Shown here: positions 4,826 through 33,641 of the stretch, in pieces
How positions within the stretch are numbered: position 1 is the first letter of the stretch
Layout of the letters: every line of letters begins with the position of its first letter
Origin: a phage
Length of the DNA: 50,825 bases
Strand: one strand, 5' to 3'
Sequence record: PZ452600.1
The notes under the pieces: model-generated
What the model saw: the letters and a program-made list of their open reading frames with translations, nothing else
What the model was told of the DNA's origin: nothing
Databases searched by the model: none
Translations under genes and position numbers: made by a program

Positions 4826-5335
4826 ATGGCTAAAATTGGAGCAAGTTATTTTGACACTATGGCGCGTGCGCTTCCTGGTCAGGTATCCGACACGTCAGCA
4901 TATAACATCGACGGCGCTTGCGTTCTTGACAAGGAAGACGGCATCCCAATCCTGGTTGGTGTGGCTGTTAAGCTAAAAGGCGTTGACTCAATGGGTAACA
5001 AGCTGATCGACTCCATTTCCGCTGGCGGTGATGTTCCTTATGGCGTTGGCATCCGTTCTCACTTTCAAACAACGGCTGATAATGGTCGAATGGTTTATGA
5101 GGTTGGCGGCGGAATCAACGTTATGACAGAGGGCCGCGTTTGGATGATTGGCGATGATTCAGATAAGGCCAAAAAGCCATCGTATCGTGAGCCTGTAAAA
5201 ATTGATGAAAACACTGGCAAGGTAAAAAGTGGTGGCGCTATCAATACCAACTGGATTTACACGGGAGATAAAACCACATTTGGAACTGGCGAAGATGTGT
5301 TGACTTTGTTTGAAGTTCAGGTCTTCCCAAGCTAA
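4826..5335 (+). CDS. capsid-associated protein (decoration-like), paralog 1
   Basis: GGAG RBS; starts MAK; paralogous to the next ORF (YNIDGACV / GVGIRSHFQTTADNG...GINVMTEGRVWM). Confidence 0.4.
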   Translation: MAKIGASYFDTMARALPGQVSDTSAYNIDGACVLDKEDGIPILVGVAVKLKGVDSMGNKLIDSISAGGDVPYGVGIRSHFQTTADNGRMVYEVGGGINVMTEGRVWMIGDDSDKAKKPSYREPVKIDENTGKVKSGGAINTNWIYTGDKTTFGTGEDVLTLFEVQVFPS

Positions 5336-5340
5336 AATTA

Positions 5341-5367
5341 AGGCGCTCGCTTGAGCGCCTTTTTTAT
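5341..5367 (+). terminator. intrinsic terminator
   Basis: AGGCGCTCGCTTGAGCGCCT + T6. Confidence 0.65.
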
Positions 5368-5385
5368 TATGTAAGGAGAAATGAA

Positions 5386-6168
5386 ATGGCTAAAGATTAT
5401 TCATCTGTTATGGGTCTTTCTTGCCCTGGTTGTTTGGTTGATTCTACTCGCTACAATATTGATGGAACTGGCGTTTGCGGATCTGAGTCGATCATTGCTG
5501 GCAAAGTTGTTTTCTTCAAAGAGAGAGTGGAAGGTTATAACATATTTGTTGATCATAAAGAGTATGATGCTGTGGTTGCTGGTGTTGCTATAAGGAGCAA
5601 TATCACGACAACGGTTAACGAGGAAGACGGATACTCTGACTATAAGGAAGGAGATTCTATCAACATTTTAACAAGAGGGGTTGTATGGTGCTTAACTCAA
5701 ACGATTGAGTCTGCGCCTGAACATGGCGATCTTGTTTATGTTAACAATGATGGTTTTGTAGCAAAAAGTGATGGCGATGAAATCGTCGATGGCTGGATTT
5801 TTACTGGTGACTTCTACAAGTTTGATGAAACAATAAACATAGTAGGAGTAAGGATAACGCCGCTTCATCATAGAAAATACCTTCTTACTGGTGCGATAAT
5901 TGAGGCTGAAAATGGCTACATAGAGGGAACAGAGACGATTAATAACGTTCAATTAAAGGTAACGGTTGTTCCTACTTGGGCTGATGACAAAACGGGTCAG
6001 TGGACAATTACAAACGAGCAAGATCCAAAGGTTGCCAGCGTTAGCCGTACAGGTCTTGTTGTTCCTACTGGTGTAGGAGGCAGAGTTAACGTCAACTGGA
6101 CTGCTAATGATGGTTCTGGAGTTGCTGACCAGTTTGATATTGTATTTAAGAAAACCGCTGGCGCATAA
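5386..6168 (+). CDS. capsid-associated protein, paralog 2 with C-terminal extension
   Basis: AAGGAG RBS 9 nt before ATG 5386; N-terminal 150 aa paralogous to 4826-5335; extra beta-rich C-terminal domain. Confidence 0.4.
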   Translation: MAKDYSSVMGLSCPGCLVDSTRYNIDGTGVCGSESIIAGKVVFFKERVEGYNIFVDHKEYDAVVAGVAIRSNITTTVNEEDGYSDYKEGDSINILTRGVVWCLTQTIESAPEHGDLVYVNNDGFVAKSDGDEIVDGWIFTGDFYKFDETINIVGVRITPLHHRKYLLTGAIIEAENGYIEGTETINNVQLKVTVVPTWADDKTGQWTITNEQDPKVASVSRTGLVVPTGVGGRVNVNWTANDGSGVADQFDIVFKKTAGA

Positions 6169-6194
6169 CTGATAGCATAAAAAAACATTGCACG

Positions 6195-6212
6195 TTTAAC
6201 AAAAAGTGCTAT
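6195..6212 (+). promoter_or_regulatory. inverted box upstream of major capsid gene
   Basis: TTTAACAAAAAGTGCTAT; contains extended -10-like TGcTATCAT; followed by hairpin 6219-6238. Confidence 0.4.
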
Positions 6213-6218
6213 CATCTA

Positions 6219-6245
6219 GGCCGTTACATTTAACGGCCTTTTTTA
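6219..6245 (+). terminator. hairpin + T-run directly upstream of capsid RBS (terminator or 5' stabilising stem-loop)
   Basis: GGCCGTTA-CATT-TAACGGCC + T6. Confidence 0.55.
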
Positions 6246-6258
6246 TGGAGGAAGCAAA

Positions 6259-7230
6259 ATGGCTAAAAAATACGATGAATTAGATGCTACCATTGTAGCA
6301 AATCATTTACAGGTTCAGGGCGTTAAGGGTGATGCTTCTGATATGGGTATTTGGACCGCTCAAGAGCTACACAAGATCCGTTCAACGGCATACGAGAAAG
6401 AGTATCCGGCAGGTTCCGCACTTCGCGTATTCCCTGTAACAAACGAGCTTTCTGATACTGATAAGACTTTTGAGTATCAGACTTTTGATAAGGTTGGCTA
6501 CGCGAAAATTATCGCCGACTACACCGACGATCTGCCGACTGTGGACGCGCTGATGACTTCTGAGTTTGGCAAAGTGTTCCGCCTGGGTAACGCTTATCTG
6601 ATCTCCATTGATGAGATTAAAGCAGGTCAGCGAACTGGCAAGAGCCTGTCAACTCGCAAGGCTAACGCCGCGCAAAATGCACATGATCAGCTGATTAACT
6701 TCCTGGTGTTCAAAGGTTCCAAGCCTCATAAGATCGTTTCCGTTTTCGATCACCCTAACCTTACGAAAATTGTTTCTAAAGGATGGATGAGCCAGGATGG
6801 AAACACCAAGTTCCCTGATGTGGCAAGCGATGAACTGGAGGCTGCAATCGAGACTATCGAGGAAGTAACCAAAGGTCAGCACCGCGCGACTAACATCCTG
6901 ATCCCGCCGTCCATGCGTAAAGTCTTGACGGTTCGAATGGAAAATACCACTGAAAGTTATCTTGAATACTTCCAGAAGCAAAACGGCGGCATCACTATCG
7001 ACTCTATCGCAGAGCTTGAGGATATTGACGGCAAAGGTACGAAAGGTTGCTTGGTTTACGAAAAAGATCCAATGAACATGAGCATTGAGATTCCAGAAGC
7101 GTTTAATATGCTTCCGGCGCAGCCAAAAGACCTTCACTTCAAGGTTCCTTGCACTTCCAAGTGTACTGGCCTTACAATTTATCGTCCGTTTACGATGGTG
7201 CTTATTACTGGCTTGAAAAAGTCAGATTAA
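6259..7230 (+). CDS. major capsid protein
   Basis: 323-aa ORF with strong GGAGGA RBS, flanked by intrinsic terminators on both sides; position after scaffold/decoration genes. Confidence 0.65.
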   Translation: MAKKYDELDATIVANHLQVQGVKGDASDMGIWTAQELHKIRSTAYEKEYPAGSALRVFPVTNELSDTDKTFEYQTFDKVGYAKIIADYTDDLPTVDALMTSEFGKVFRLGNAYLISIDEIKAGQRTGKSLSTRKANAAQNAHDQLINFLVFKGSKPHKIVSVFDHPNLTKIVSKGWMSQDGNTKFPDVASDELEAAIETIEEVTKGQHRATNILIPPSMRKVLTVRMENTTESYLEYFQKQNGGITIDSIAELEDIDGKGTKGCLVYEKDPMNMSIEIPEAFNMLPAQPKDLHFKVPCTSKCTGLTIYRPFTMVLITGLKKSD

Positions 7231-31657: not shown

Positions 31658-31837
31658 ATGGTAGTATATAGCAAGAAAGCATTTGACCAGGCGCAACAAG
31701 CCGCACGCGAGGCGGTAAAAGGTGGAACGAAAAACAATATGCAGCTTGATTGGGGCGCTGCAATGATTCTACTTCGCGTTGCATATGGTCACTACCCATT
31801 AGAATTTGCGGAGGCATATTATAAGCATGAAGGTTGA
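31658..31837 (+). CDS. hypothetical protein
   Basis: GAGG 8 nt before ATG 31658; downstream of cassette 31582-31641. Confidence 0.45.
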   Translation: MVVYSKKAFDQAQQAAREAVKGGTKNNMQLDWGAAMILLRVAYGHYPLEFAEAYYKHEG

Positions 31838-32069
31838 ACAAGGTAGAGAGGCGGTATGGAATCACGCTAAAGAATGCGGAATAGCCGACGATATAAAGAA
31901 GATCGCGCAATACTTTGATATTGCAGATGTGAGCATAATTAGCGGCGATAAGATGACTTTCCTCAAGGAAAGGCCGCGAAAAATGGTAAGAGTTCCAGCA
32001 GTTCCAACAAAAATTGATTTCAAAGAGGCAATGGCTAAAATCCGAGAGCCTCGCAAATATTATAAATGA
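31827..32069 (+). CDS. hypothetical protein
   Basis: ATG 31827 overlapping upstream 3' end; 80 aa. Confidence 0.4.
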   Translation: MKVEQGREAVWNHAKECGIADDIKKIAQYFDIADVSIISGDKMTFLKERPRKMVRVPAVPTKIDFKEAMAKIREPRKYYK

Positions 32070-32074
32070 GGATA

Positions 32075-32135
32075 GTTATCATGTGGCGCTTGTTTGTTAT
32101 ACCGTTACCCGTTATCATCGCTGTTACAGTTATGT
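32075..32135. repeat. GTTAY repeat array upstream of HTH-phosphoesterase gene
   Basis: GTTATCA (32075), GTTATAC (32096), GTTACCC (32104), GTTATCA (32111), GTTACAG (32123), GTTATGT (32128) in a 94-nt intergenic region. Confidence 0.45.
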
Positions 32136-32163
32136 ACCATATAGTGATGAGATAGGTAGCAGA

Positions 32164-33279
32164 ATGAAAAATGTAAAAATTACAGATGAGCAATTCAAGA
32201 TCGAACGGGCGGCGGGTAAGACATATAAACAGATCGCTCAAGAGTACGGAATGAATGTGAGAAGCGTCGAGCGTCGCGCGGCGCGACTTGCAAAGCAAGG
32301 CCAGGTATCCACAATTGGAGCGCCTGGTTTTGGCGTTCATGGTGAGTCAGTAATGACTGACAAAGAAGGCAACATAATCCTAAAGTGGACTAAAACCAGC
32401 AAGGATAAAGAGCAATTAGAAGCATTAATGCGCGCAGCAATGGAGGCATTTAGCGAGGAAGTGCCGCGATTAGATCCGGTTCCATTACAGGAGCGCGACT
32501 ATAACGAAACGCTTTCCTTGTATCCGATCTTTGACATGCACTTAGGCGCTATGGCCCATAAGCACGAATGCGGCGAAAATTGGGATACTGCCACGGCAGA
32601 GCGCGTTATGAATAACTTTATCGACTATGCTTTAATGTGCGCACCGGATAGCGAAAAGGCTGTCATCCTGATTGGTGGCGATATGCTGCATAGCGACGGC
32701 CTGGAGGCGGTTACACCTGCAAGCGGTCACGTACTGGATCAAGATAGTCGATATGCAAAATTGGTTTACGTTGCCATCCGTGCAATGCGACGCGCAATCA
32801 ATAAAATGTTGTTAAAGCATAAACATGTTGAAGTCCAGATCGTAGAGGGCAATCATGACCAATCAGGAATGATTTGGCTGCGCGCAGCAATGGCGGCAGC
32901 ATATGAAAACGAGCCGCGCGTTTACGTTGATGTTTCACCTCGCGTTGTGCACCACACGCAATACGGAAAAACTTTCCTTGCGTACCATCACGGGCACACA
33001 GTGCGTAAACCGGAGACTTTGCTAATGATGTGCGCGTCAGATTGGCGGGAGGACTTCGGAAACTCAAAAACGATGTATGCGCACGTAGGGCACTGGCATC
33101 ACCAGACCGTGACAGAAACGTCGCTTGGCATCGTTGAGGTGCATAGCACCCTGGCGGCAAAAGACGCATACGCCGCGCGCGGTGGCTGGAGATCTCGACG
33201 CCGTGCGGCGGTTATCATTTACGACAAAGAGCATGGAGAGGTGGGGCGATTTGTTCACTATCCAGAAATGATGAATTGA
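32164..33279 (+). CDS. HTH domain fused to calcineurin-like metallophosphoesterase
   Basis: N-terminal HTH-like TYKQIAQEYGMNVRSVERRAARLAKQG; phosphoesterase motifs DMHLG, GGDMLHSDG, EGNHD, GHWHH; preceded by GTTAY repeat array. Confidence 0.65.
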   Translation: MKNVKITDEQFKIERAAGKTYKQIAQEYGMNVRSVERRAARLAKQGQVSTIGAPGFGVHGESVMTDKEGNIILKWTKTSKDKEQLEALMRAAMEAFSEEVPRLDPVPLQERDYNETLSLYPIFDMHLGAMAHKHECGENWDTATAERVMNNFIDYALMCAPDSEKAVILIGGDMLHSDGLEAVTPASGHVLDQDSRYAKLVYVAIRAMRRAINKMLLKHKHVEVQIVEGNHDQSGMIWLRAAMAAAYENEPRVYVDVSPRVVHHTQYGKTFLAYHHGHTVRKPETLLMMCASDWREDFGNSKTMYAHVGHWHHQTVTETSLGIVEVHSTLAAKDAYAARGGWRSRRRAAVIIYDKEHGEVGRFVHYPEMMN

Positions 33280-33425
33280 TGAATTTTTATTTAAATCAAT
33301 GACAAATTAAATCAAAAACTTGCAAGGGGGCGGCGTTTGTCGCCTCTTTTTTTTGTTTAATTTTTTTACCATGTACGTTTATCATGCGGTCAATATATTG
33401 ACTTTAATTAATATGGAGAATAAAA

Positions 33426-33641
33426 ATGAAAGATTTTATTAACGCAGCTACCGCCGGATCTGGCGGTTCATCTATCGCAAGCGCCGCTACAGGGCAGTTA
33501 ACCATTGCTATTGCCAGCTTTGTTTTAATGGCTGCATTCGGTGCATGGGGCGCTTACCTTCGCTGGCGTGATAGTAAAAAATTCCACGAGGCGATCGAAA
33601 AAGGTGATATTCAAAAAGCTATTGAAATCAGGGGCAAGTAA
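33426..33641 (+). CDS. holin
   Basis: 71 aa, one hydrophobic helix ([21 protein letters not shown]) and charged C-terminus; immediately upstream of endolysin. Confidence 0.65.

What the first reader, a model, noticed from the sequence alone, without database searches (positions are those of the whole stretch)
32075..33279. HTH-metallophosphoesterase fusion gene preceded by a GTTAY repeat array
ORF 32164-33279 combines an N-terminal HTH-like domain with calcineurin-like phosphoesterase motifs (GDMLHSDG, GNHD, GHWHH). Its 94-nt upstream region carries six GTTA(T/C) repeats, including two identical GTTATCA copies 36 nt apart. A DNA-binding phosphoesterase with its own candidate operator suggests autoregulation or a site-directed nuclease or phosphatase role.
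Basis: partly seen in the sequence, partly recalled or inferred. Interest (0 to 1): 0.5.

Follow-up and report, generated by a model that had tools for sequence, protein, structure and literature searches.

The report
Phage phosphoesterase gene; repeats are codons
The gene is a real, widespread and already annotated phage enzyme with a DNA-binding head. The "repeat array" in front of it is not a regulatory site: it is the codon pattern of a tiny, conserved 24-residue membrane-peptide gene that most annotations miss.

Summary
The window is a T1-like coliphage (Drexlerviridae, Warwickvirus). ORF 32164-33279 (371 aa) exists as described. Its protein is 100% identical to the "putative phosphoesterase" of phage tunzivis and belongs to PHROG 704.

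Structure prediction and fold searches support both domains. Residues 8-79 form a (winged) helix-turn-helix head. Residues 114-365 form a metallophosphoesterase core. All metal-binding motifs are invariant across distant relatives.

The six GTTAY copies are also real, but the 94-nt "upstream region" is coding. It holds a 24-aa hydrophobic micro-ORF (32081-32155, MWRLFVIPLPVIIAVTVMYHIVMR) with its own Shine-Dalgarno sequence. This ORF keeps its frame, length and hydrophobic character in all T1-like relatives, while their GTTAY count ranges from 0 to 5.

Four of the six copies are in-frame GTT (the phage's preferred Val codon) followed by an Ile, Thr or Met codon. No promoter-like site lies in the region, so the operator/autoregulation idea is not supported.

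The enzyme's substrate is unknown. The best guess is a DNA-tethered Mre11/SbcD-like nuclease or phosphodiesterase at the end of the early DNA-metabolism operon. Overall this is an ordinary, already annotated gene plus a modestly interesting, under-annotated micropeptide.

The parts
31827..32069 (+). Upstream gene of unknown function (80 aa, PHROG 2817). Its TGA stop (32067-32069) overlaps an ATG at 32066 (ATGA).
   Evidence: JK16 CDS 5279-5521; phrog_2817, E 1.6e-34.
32068..32072 (+). Shine-Dalgarno sequence GAGGA, 8 nt upstream of the conserved micro-ORF start codon.
   Evidence: Read directly from the sequence. An SD-like motif is present at the same place in 14 of 19 distinct relatives.
32081..32155 (+). 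Micro-ORF of 24 aa, MWRLFVIPLPVIIAVTVMYHIVMR (possible 29-aa form from ATG 32066). Predicted single-pass hydrophobic peptide. It contains five of the six GTTAY copies; the sixth (32075) lies in the SD-to-ATG spacer.
   Evidence: 30 distinct 69-nt versions align without gaps and none has a stop in this frame. Column entropy by codon position is 3 > 1 > 2, and pN/pS is 0.54. GRAVY is 1.6. It is retained when homing endonucleases are inserted on either side. The 29-aa form is annotated as a hypothetical protein in a few GenBank records.
32164..33279 (+). HTH-metallophosphoesterase gene (371 aa), PHROG 704.
   Evidence: The ATG at 32164 is the conserved start. The longer TTG (32014) and GTG (32083) starts used in some records are not conserved: most relatives have an in-frame stop 4-34 nt upstream.
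32185..32400 (+). N-terminal (winged) helix-turn-helix domain: helices at residues 8-16, 21-28 and 32-44, plus a beta-hairpin at 57-79.
32503..33258 (+). Metallophosphoesterase catalytic core (residues 114-365). Motifs: D124xH126, G172-D173, G229-N-H-D232, H276-G-H278, G309-H-W-H312.
33324..33359 (+). Intrinsic terminator (11-bp stem plus T-run) closing the operon, ahead of the lysis cassette (holin starts at 33426).

Best explanation
Shown or strongly supported:
(1) The segment 32070-32163 is not an operator. It encodes a 24-aa hydrophobic micropeptide (32081-32155) with its own Shine-Dalgarno sequence. The micropeptide gene sits between an upstream gene (ATGA stop/start overlap at 32066-32069) and the phosphoesterase gene, whose ATG lies 8 nt after the micro-ORF stop.
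(2) The GTTAY 'repeats' are a by-product of coding Val-Ile, Val-Thr and Val-Met dipeptides of a transmembrane helix with the phage's preferred Val codon GTT. One further copy is out of frame (Pro-Leu-Pro) and one lies in the SD spacer.
(3) ORF 32164-33279 encodes a two-domain protein, an N-terminal (winged) HTH and a dinuclear metallophosphoesterase with every metal ligand intact. It belongs to a very large phage family (PHROG 704).

Inferred:
(4) The three genes are co-transcribed and translationally coupled as the tail of the early DNA-metabolism operon, which ends at the terminator at 33324.
(5) The enzyme is a DNA-tethered Mre11/SbcD-like Mn2+-dependent nuclease or phosphodiesterase. It would work without a Rad50/SbcC partner on DNA ends or host DNA during replication and recombination, with the HTH giving DNA affinity rather than operator-specific autoregulation.
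(6) The micropeptide inserts into the inner membrane. Its role is unknown.
For: Micro-ORF as a coding unit:
- It is present, in frame and of fixed length in every T1-like relative down to about 60% identity of the phosphoesterase protein. All 30 distinct versions lack stops in this frame, while 22 of 30 have stops in the +1 frame (a third frame is also stop-free). Third-position variability is highest and pN/pS is 0.54.
- It survives homing-endonuclease insertions downstream (L029, L032) and upstream (L035).
- An SD-like motif is present in 14 of 19 distinct upstream sequences.
- Some GenBank records call it as a gene.

GTTAY as a codon by-product:
- Relatives carry 0-5 copies, mostly at codon phase 0.
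- Back-translation of the peptide predicts a mean of 2.4 copies.

No regulatory or RNA signal:
- No promoter-like site in the region, no Rfam hit, and RNA folding z-score of -1.5.

Protein:
- PHROG 704, E 5e-149. AlphaFold2 mean pLDDT 77.
- Fold matches and invariant D124, H126, D173, N230, H231, H276, H312 across sequences only 32-56% identical to it.
- 5312 clusters at 50% identity in metagenomes and 2030 phage records.

Context:
- Replication module in lambdoid prophages: O-like initiator, then HTH-phosphoesterase, then DnaB-like helicase, in 38 of 38 loci.
- End of the early region, next to lysis or packaging genes, in many other lineages.
Against: - There is no direct evidence that the micropeptide is translated, and pN/pS of 0.54 over 23 codons is only moderate constraint.
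- One relative (L036) has a stop at codon 3 of the micro-ORF.
- Five GTTAY copies inside the ORF is slightly more than codon usage predicts (P about 0.03, uncorrected), so an overlaid DNA function cannot be strictly excluded.
- No capping domain and no Rad50/SbcC partner was found.
- Pfam Metallophos (16.8 bits against a 21.5 cut-off) and all Pfam HTH models are below threshold for this protein.
- Three strongly conserved loops (residues 132-139, 179-193, 334-342) are modelled with low confidence, so substrate-binding geometry is unknown.
Confidence: 0.72

Rival explanations
1. One reading: the GTTAY copies are an operator array bound by the protein's own HTH domain, giving autoregulation or site-directed cleavage.
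For: Six same-strand copies within 59 nt exceed all 300 Markov shuffles. Five copies inside the ORF is marginally more than codon usage predicts (P 0.03). The protein does carry an HTH-like domain.
Against: Relatives that retain the HTH have 0-5 copies at shifting positions; L014 and L075-L080 have none. The closest relatives lose copy 2 by an Ile-to-Leu change. Spacing is irregular. No promoter-like site lies in 32042-32356. The region is a conserved ORF. Prophage and distant family members have unrelated upstream sequences.
Confidence: 0.05
2. The phosphoesterase acts on a small molecule or a phosphoprotein, not on DNA. Examples would be a cyclic-nucleotide or dinucleotide phosphodiesterase with an anti-defence role, or a NinI-like phosphatase. 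The HTH would serve only for localisation or regulation.
Against: The N-terminal DNA-binding-type domain is fused and conserved across the family. The gene sits in replication and recombination modules. The motifs are not of the PPP type (GDxHG / GDxVDRG / GNHE). The best Foldseek hits are Mre11.
Confidence: 0.2
3. The protein is mainly a transcription factor, for example an activator of the adjacent late or lysis operon. The phosphoesterase domain would be a sensor or accessory module.
For: HTH domain. Weak PHROG hit to 'transcriptional regulator, D5-like' (E 3e-4). Recurrent position immediately upstream of lysis, terminase or Q-like genes in many lineages.
Against: All catalytic metal ligands are invariant over a very divergent family, which argues for a selected enzymatic activity. 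In lambdoid prophages the gene lies inside the replication module, far from late genes. No target motif was identified.
Confidence: 0.1
4. The micro-ORF is not translated. The 94 nt would be a spacer whose open frame and hydrophobic 'peptide' are incidental, or it would act only as a leader that couples ribosomes to the phosphoesterase start.
For: pN/pS of 0.54 is only moderate. A second frame is also stop-free in all 30 versions. L036 carries an early stop. The micro-ORF stop is always 4-33 nt from the phosphoesterase start, which fits a coupling role. PHROGs has no family for it.
Against: Fixed length with no indels across about 40% protein-level divergence. Conserved Pro-x-Pro and M-Y...M pattern and hydrophobicity. 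Its own SD. It persists when a homing endonuclease separates it from the phosphoesterase gene (L029, L032), so coupling to that gene is not what maintains it.
Confidence: 0.12

Closest known systems
PHROG 704 'DNA repair exonuclease', the 'putative phosphoesterase' of T1-like phages (e.g. tunzivis MN850604, JK16 YP_009900894, damhaus, aaroes)
   Same: Full-length profile match, E 5e-149. 100% protein identity to tunzivis. Same genomic position, before the holin gene.
   Different: Nothing; this gene is a member. The family name is a homology-based guess, and no experimental study was found.
Mre11 / SbcD nuclease subunits and the PolD DP1 proofreading exonuclease
   Different: About 15% sequence identity. 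No capping domain. No Rad50/SbcC or polymerase partner gene nearby. It carries an N-terminal HTH that those proteins lack. Family-specific conserved loops at residues 132-139, 179-193 and 334-342.
Mycobacteriophage cluster A metallophosphoesterase (A10ZJ24 Gp48)
   Same: A phage-encoded stand-alone metallophosphoesterase with five motifs. Reported phosphodiesterase activity and disruption of host genome integrity (PMC12287305). This is a functional precedent for a partner-less phage phosphoesterase acting on DNA.
   Different: Its motif I lies at residue 10, so it has no N-terminal HTH domain. No sequence relationship was tested here. Different host and phage group.
Small hydrophobic bacterial and phage membrane peptides (type I toxins such as Ibs/TisB; AcrZ- or KdpF-like modulators). 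Comparison from general knowledge only.
   Same: The micro-ORF product is 23-29 aa with a single hydrophobic helix (GRAVY 1.6) and charged residues near the ends.
   Different: No sequence similarity was tested or claimed. There is no antisense RNA or toxin evidence. It is embedded in a phage operon.

Membership tests
Calcineurin-like metallophosphoesterase superfamily | Five motifs that supply the dinuclear metal ligands (DxH, GD, GNH[DE], H, GHxH) | tested here: met
   D124-M-H126, G172-D173, G229-N-H-D232, H276/H278 and G309-H-W-H312 are present. They are invariant or nearly so in A1 (40 sequences) and A2 (57 sequences, 32-56% identical to the window protein).
Calcineurin-like metallophosphoesterase superfamily | Four-layer alpha/beta sandwich fold | tested here: met
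Calcineurin-like metallophosphoesterase superfamily | Pfam PF00149 gathering threshold | tested here: not met
   16.8 bits against a 21.5 cut-off for this protein. A distant family member, P0148, passes at 25.1 bits.
Calcineurin-like metallophosphoesterase superfamily | Metal-dependent phosphoester hydrolysis | not testable with these tools
   Needs an enzyme assay.
Mre11/SbcD nucleases | C-terminal capping domain next to the nuclease domain | tested here: not met
Mre11/SbcD nucleases | Adjacent Rad50/SbcC ATPase partner gene | tested here: not met
   None is annotated within about 6 kb in JK16. None appears among the most frequent neighbour families in the sampled lineages (66 at 70% identity).
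Mre11/SbcD nucleases | Exo- or endonuclease activity on DNA | not testable with these tools
   Needs biochemistry.
Helix-turn-helix DNA-binding domains (LuxR/GerE-like or winged helix) | Tri-helical HTH fold, with or without a beta wing | tested here: met
Helix-turn-helix DNA-binding domains (LuxR/GerE-like or winged helix) | A curated profile threshold (Pfam HTH families) | tested here: not met
   The best hit is Sigma70_r4_2 at 18.3 bits against 25.7. The PDB profile gives LuxR-type hits at E 0.05-0.5 only. A distant member, P0221, passes HTH_11, Sigma70_r4 and HTH_24.
Helix-turn-helix DNA-binding domains (LuxR/GerE-like or winged helix) | Sequence-specific DNA binding | not testable with these tools
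   Needs EMSA or footprinting.
Operator or iteron repeat arrays | The repeat motif is conserved in relatives that keep the binding protein | tested here: not met
   0-5 GTTAY copies at varying positions; none in L014 or L075-L080.
Operator or iteron repeat arrays | Location in non-coding DNA overlapping a promoter or origin | tested here: not met
   The copies lie inside a conserved micro-ORF, and no promoter-like site is found in 32042-32356.
PHROG 704 | Full-length profile match | tested here: met
   E 5.4e-149; residues 5-370 against profile positions 3-389 of 390.

The most novel reading that the evidence does not exclude
The 24-aa peptide is a functional small membrane protein specific to Drexlerviridae, for example a modulator of a host inner-membrane protein, of lysis timing, or of superinfection exclusion. 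It would be co-expressed with a partner-less, HTH-tethered phosphoesterase nuclease that attacks host or replicating DNA. Most database records overlook the peptide, and several hide it under an over-extended phosphoesterase CDS.
Probability: 0.3. Interest if true: 0.45.

Novelty: already known. Interest (0 to 1): 0.2.

Why it matters
Mostly as a correction. A dense short-motif cluster in front of a DNA-binding protein looks like an operator, but here it is a codon-usage footprint of a hydrophobic micro-ORF.

Three practical points follow:
- RefSeq and GenBank records that start the phosphoesterase CDS at TTG 32014 (421 aa) or GTG 32083 (398 aa) are probably over-extended and mask the micropeptide gene.
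- A very common phage protein family (about 4% of sequenced phages, more than 5000 clusters at 50% identity) still has no experimentally defined substrate, and its annotation names contradict one another.
- The conserved micropeptide is a cheap target for small-protein studies in a model phage group (T1-like, BASEL collection).

Tried and rejected
- Structured RNA or riboswitch in the 94-nt region: no Rfam match at E <= 1, and folding z-score only -1.5.
- Promoter within the region: none found by the consensus scan.
- Long TTG or GTG start for the phosphoesterase gene, which would make the repeats part of its coding sequence: rejected, because the in-frame extension is closed by stops in most relatives.
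- The micropeptide as a general partner of the phosphoesterase family: rejected. It was found upstream in only 5 of 64 lineages, 4 of them T1-like, against 8 of 284 control positions.
- A conserved partner gene for the phosphoesterase: blastp clustering and PHROG scans of 300 neighbours found only loose association with lysis, terminase, Q-like and nucleotide-metabolism genes.
- Genome-contig scan with alignment A1: only 2 loci.
- Sequence search of the PDB: no significant hit for the full-length profile.
- Literature searches: no functional study of the T1-type protein.
- Phage Tn-seq preprint: no Drexlerviridae data.

Full report
**Identity of the window and the gene**

A megablast of 31800-33500 finds 117 phage records that cover the segment. 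The best are 99% identical T1-like siphophages of the Drexlerviridae, subfamily Tempevirinae, genus Warwickvirus (JLBYU01, tuinn, JK16, tonn). By tblastn the protein is 100% identical to the "putative phosphoesterase" of phage tunzivis.

The local gene order is as follows:
- helicase, VRR-NUC nuclease, Dam-like methylase and three small ORFs;
- the gene in question;
- a strong intrinsic terminator at 33324-33349;
- holin, endolysin and spanin.

**Checking the observation**

ORF 32164-33279 is open and encodes 371 aa. The quoted motifs are present. GTTAY lies at 32075, 32096, 32104, 32111, 32123 and 32129 on the + strand. GTTATCAT lies at 32075 and 32111.

This is the densest same-strand GTTAY cluster in the window, and none of 300 Markov shuffles reached six copies in 60 nt. 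However, other tetramers also reach six copies per 60 nt at other places in the window. The statistic alone is therefore not decisive.

**What the 94 nt really are**

I lined up the upstream regions of 80 related viral contigs. This shows an ATG at 32081, preceded by GAGGA (32068-72), which opens a 24-codon frame ending at TAG 32153-55. The product is MWRLFVIPLPVIIAVTVMYHIVMR.

Evidence that this frame is coding:
- Every T1-like relative, down to about 60% identity of the phosphoesterase protein, has an ORF at the same place. It has the same length and a conserved pattern: M-(W/R)-R..., Pro-x-Pro in the middle, then M-Y-x-x-(V/I)-M.
- Thirty distinct 69-nt versions align without a gap and none has a stop in this frame. 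Twenty-two of the 30 have stops in the +1 frame, although a third frame is also stop-free.
- Column entropy by codon position is 3 > 1 > 2 (1.34, 1.03, 0.63). Pooled pN/pS is 0.54 in this frame, against 0.67 and 1.22 in the other two.
- An SD-like motif precedes the start in 14 of 19 distinct sequences.
- The peptide is strongly hydrophobic (GRAVY 1.6; best 19-residue window 2.35).

Relatives with HNH homing-endonuclease insertions are informative. The micro-ORF persists both when the insertion lies between it and the phosphoesterase gene (L029, L032) and when it lies upstream (L035). One genome (L036) has a stop at codon 3.

A few GenBank records already call the 29-aa version (from ATG 32066, which overlaps the upstream gene's TGA as ATGA) as a hypothetical protein. 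Others bury it under a phosphoesterase CDS extended to TTG 32014 (421 aa, RefSeq JK16) or to GTG 32083 (398 aa, JLBYU01). Those extensions are not conserved, because most relatives have an in-frame stop 4-34 nt upstream of the ATG.

**Why GTTAY is repeated**

- Four copies are in-frame GTT (Val) followed by ATA, ATC, ACA or ATG (Ile, Ile, Thr, Met).
- One copy is out of frame, in CCG-TTA-CCC (Pro-Leu-Pro).
- One copy sits in the SD-to-ATG spacer.

GTT makes up 47% of Val codons in the long ORFs of this phage. Random back-translation of the peptide with the phage's own codon usage gives a mean of 2.4 GTTAY, fourteen times the genomic background. Five or more copies appear in 3.2% of trials.

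In relatives the count runs from 0 to 5, with almost all copies at codon phase 0. The 99%-identical genomes lose the second copy through an ATA-to-CTA (Ile-to-Leu) change. So the DNA motif is not conserved while the peptide is.

No sigma-70-like promoter is predicted between 32042 and 32356. There is no Rfam match and no unusual RNA structure (z -1.5). The eightfold GTTATCAT is enriched window-wide (7 observed against 2 expected). One of those copies, at 33211, is a Val-Ile-Ile codon run inside the phosphoesterase gene, which again points to codon usage. I did not check the reading frame of the four copies outside this locus. The operator hypothesis is therefore not supported.

**The protein**

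Pfam gives only sub-threshold hits: Metallophos at 16.8 bits against a 21.5 cut-off, and several HTH families at residues 14-48. NCBIfam gives nothing meaningful. PHROG 704 ("DNA repair exonuclease") matches end to end at E 5e-149.

The family is very large:
- 902 hits with E <= 1e-5 among the 8000 candidates scored in the word-indexed search;
- 5312 clusters at 50% identity with E <= 1e-3 in the exhaustive search, most of them 370-420 aa and aligned from near the N-terminus;
- 2030 of 50,697 phage records, covering Escherichia, Klebsiella, Salmonella, Vibrio, Flavobacterium and Rhodobacter phages among others.

The annotated names in those records are inconsistent: exonuclease, phosphoesterase, phosphatase, oxidoreductase.

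Across 57 sequences only 32-56% identical to the window protein, D124, H126, D173, N230, H231, H276, G309 and H312 are invariant, and H310 nearly so. That is the full set of metallophosphoesterase metal ligands.

An AlphaFold2 model (pLDDT 77) shows these elements:
- three N-terminal helices;
- a beta-hairpin at residues 58-78;
- a long helix at residues 79-99;
- the phosphoesterase sandwich at residues 114-365.

Fold searches agree with the two-domain reading:
- Foldseek's best PDB hits are M. jannaschii Mre11 (E 1.4e-7), followed by PolD DP1, Vps29, GpdQ and Rv0805.
- The sequence profile of that domain weakly finds LuxR-type HTH domains in the PDB (E 0.05-0.5).
- Distant family members cross the Pfam HTH and Metallophos thresholds.

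The HTH-phosphoesterase architecture is thus real and characteristic of the whole family.

Three highly conserved loops (residues 132-139, 179-193, 334-342) are modelled with low confidence and are probably family-specific substrate-binding elements.

**Context and likely function**

In 38 of 38 lambdoid prophage loci the gene lies between an O-like replication initiator and a DnaB-like helicase, which starts directly downstream. A Ren/MarR-like gene and NinB follow.

I grouped the distant homologues into 66 lineages at 70% identity and examined their flanks. Downstream neighbours are most often endolysin, holin, terminase subunits or a Q-like antiterminator. Upstream neighbours are diverse small ORFs, NinG/Rap, endonuclease VII and nucleotide kinases. 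No Rad50/SbcC-like partner recurs.

The gene is therefore typically the last gene of the early DNA-metabolism block. I found no experimental work on this family. A different, HTH-less mycobacteriophage phosphoesterase has been reported to have phosphodiesterase activity and to damage host DNA (PMC12287305).

My best inference is a DNA-tethered, partner-less Mre11/SbcD-like nuclease or phosphodiesterase that acts during replication, recombination or host-DNA breakdown. I put this at roughly 45-50% for the nuclease part. The alternatives are a small-molecule phosphodiesterase or phosphatase (about 20%) and a primarily regulatory role (about 10%).

**The micropeptide's distribution**

It is confined to T1-like lineages. 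A small hydrophobic ORF ends next to the phosphoesterase start in 5 of 64 lineages, four of them T1-like, against 8 of 284 control positions. It is not a general partner of the enzyme family. Its function is unknown.

**Verdict**

- The protein interpretation is supported.
- The operator and autoregulation interpretation is not supported.
- The gene is an already annotated member of a known but uncharacterised phage family.
- The "repeat array" is a coding artefact of a conserved, mostly unannotated micro-ORF.
- Interest is low. The micropeptide and the annotation correction are the only modestly new points.

Noticed in passing
window 32081-32155 (alternative start 32066): Conserved 24-aa (or 29-aa) hydrophobic micro-ORF between the PHROG 2817 gene and the phosphoesterase gene. 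It is present in all T1-like relatives examined, annotated in only a few GenBank records, and absent from PHROGs.
   Followed up: yes
window 32014-32163; JK16 NC_049814 CDS 5466-6731; JLBYU01 CDS 5535-6731: Public records disagree on the phosphoesterase start codon (421, 398 or 371 aa). The two long versions overlap the micro-ORF in another frame and are not supported by conservation.
   Followed up: yes
L029/L032 2326-2997; L035/L036 about 2426-2905: HNH/AP2-type homing endonuclease genes are inserted either just downstream or just upstream of the micro-ORF in some relatives. L036 also has a TAA at micro-ORF codon 3.
   Followed up: partly
L038-L074 and L081 (e.g. L042 428-7031): A lambdoid E. 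coli prophage lineage (53-57 kb contigs) carries a 65-67% identical HTH-phosphoesterase inside its replication module. It lies after an O-like initiator and a variable ~1-kb insert (an HNH endonuclease in some loci), and directly before a DnaB-like helicase, then a Ren/MarR-like gene and NinB.
   Followed up: partly
phosphoesterase residues 132-139, 179-193 and 334-342 (window 32557-32580, 32698-32742, 33163-33189): Three of the most conserved stretches of the family (KHECGENW, GLEAVTPASGHVLDQ, DAYAARGGW) are modelled with pLDDT below 50. They are probably family-specific substrate or metal-site loops.
   Followed up: no
window 3238, 3747(-), 7349, 9663(-), 32075, 32111, 33211: GTTATCAT occurs 7 times against about 2 expected from dinucleotide shuffles. 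The copy at 33211 is a Val-Ile-Ile codon run inside the phosphoesterase gene, so this probably reflects codon usage rather than a binding site. I did not check the frame of the four copies outside this locus.
   Followed up: partly
window 33324-33359 and 33398-33427: A strong terminator after the phosphoesterase gene is followed by a promoter-like TTGACT-18-AAAAAT in front of the holin gene (33426). This marks the boundary between the early and lysis transcription units.
   Followed up: no
one search hit list: 18 records named 'Campylobacter phage' (host C. jejuni) match this T1-like segment by megablast; I did not check which identity band they fall in. This is odd for Drexlerviridae and may reflect mislabelled hosts or contamination.
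   Followed up: no
L084 (MAG 'Bacillota bacterium') and L085 (Nitratidesulfovibrio liaohensis contig): These are the only two genome-contig hits. Both carry the T1-type micro-ORF (MRSLILVALVPMFSFTILYFIVMN and MRALTLVALTPLFSFIILYFIVMN) plus a 58-59% identical phosphoesterase, followed by holin and endolysin. They are probably T1-like phage sequences within those assemblies.
   Followed up: partly
L037 2672-2899: The upstream PHROG 2817-like gene shows an internal tandem duplication of its C-terminal half (AYVEEKPRKVV...KKYYK twice), and the methylase gene looks scrambled. This is possibly an assembly artefact.
   Followed up: no
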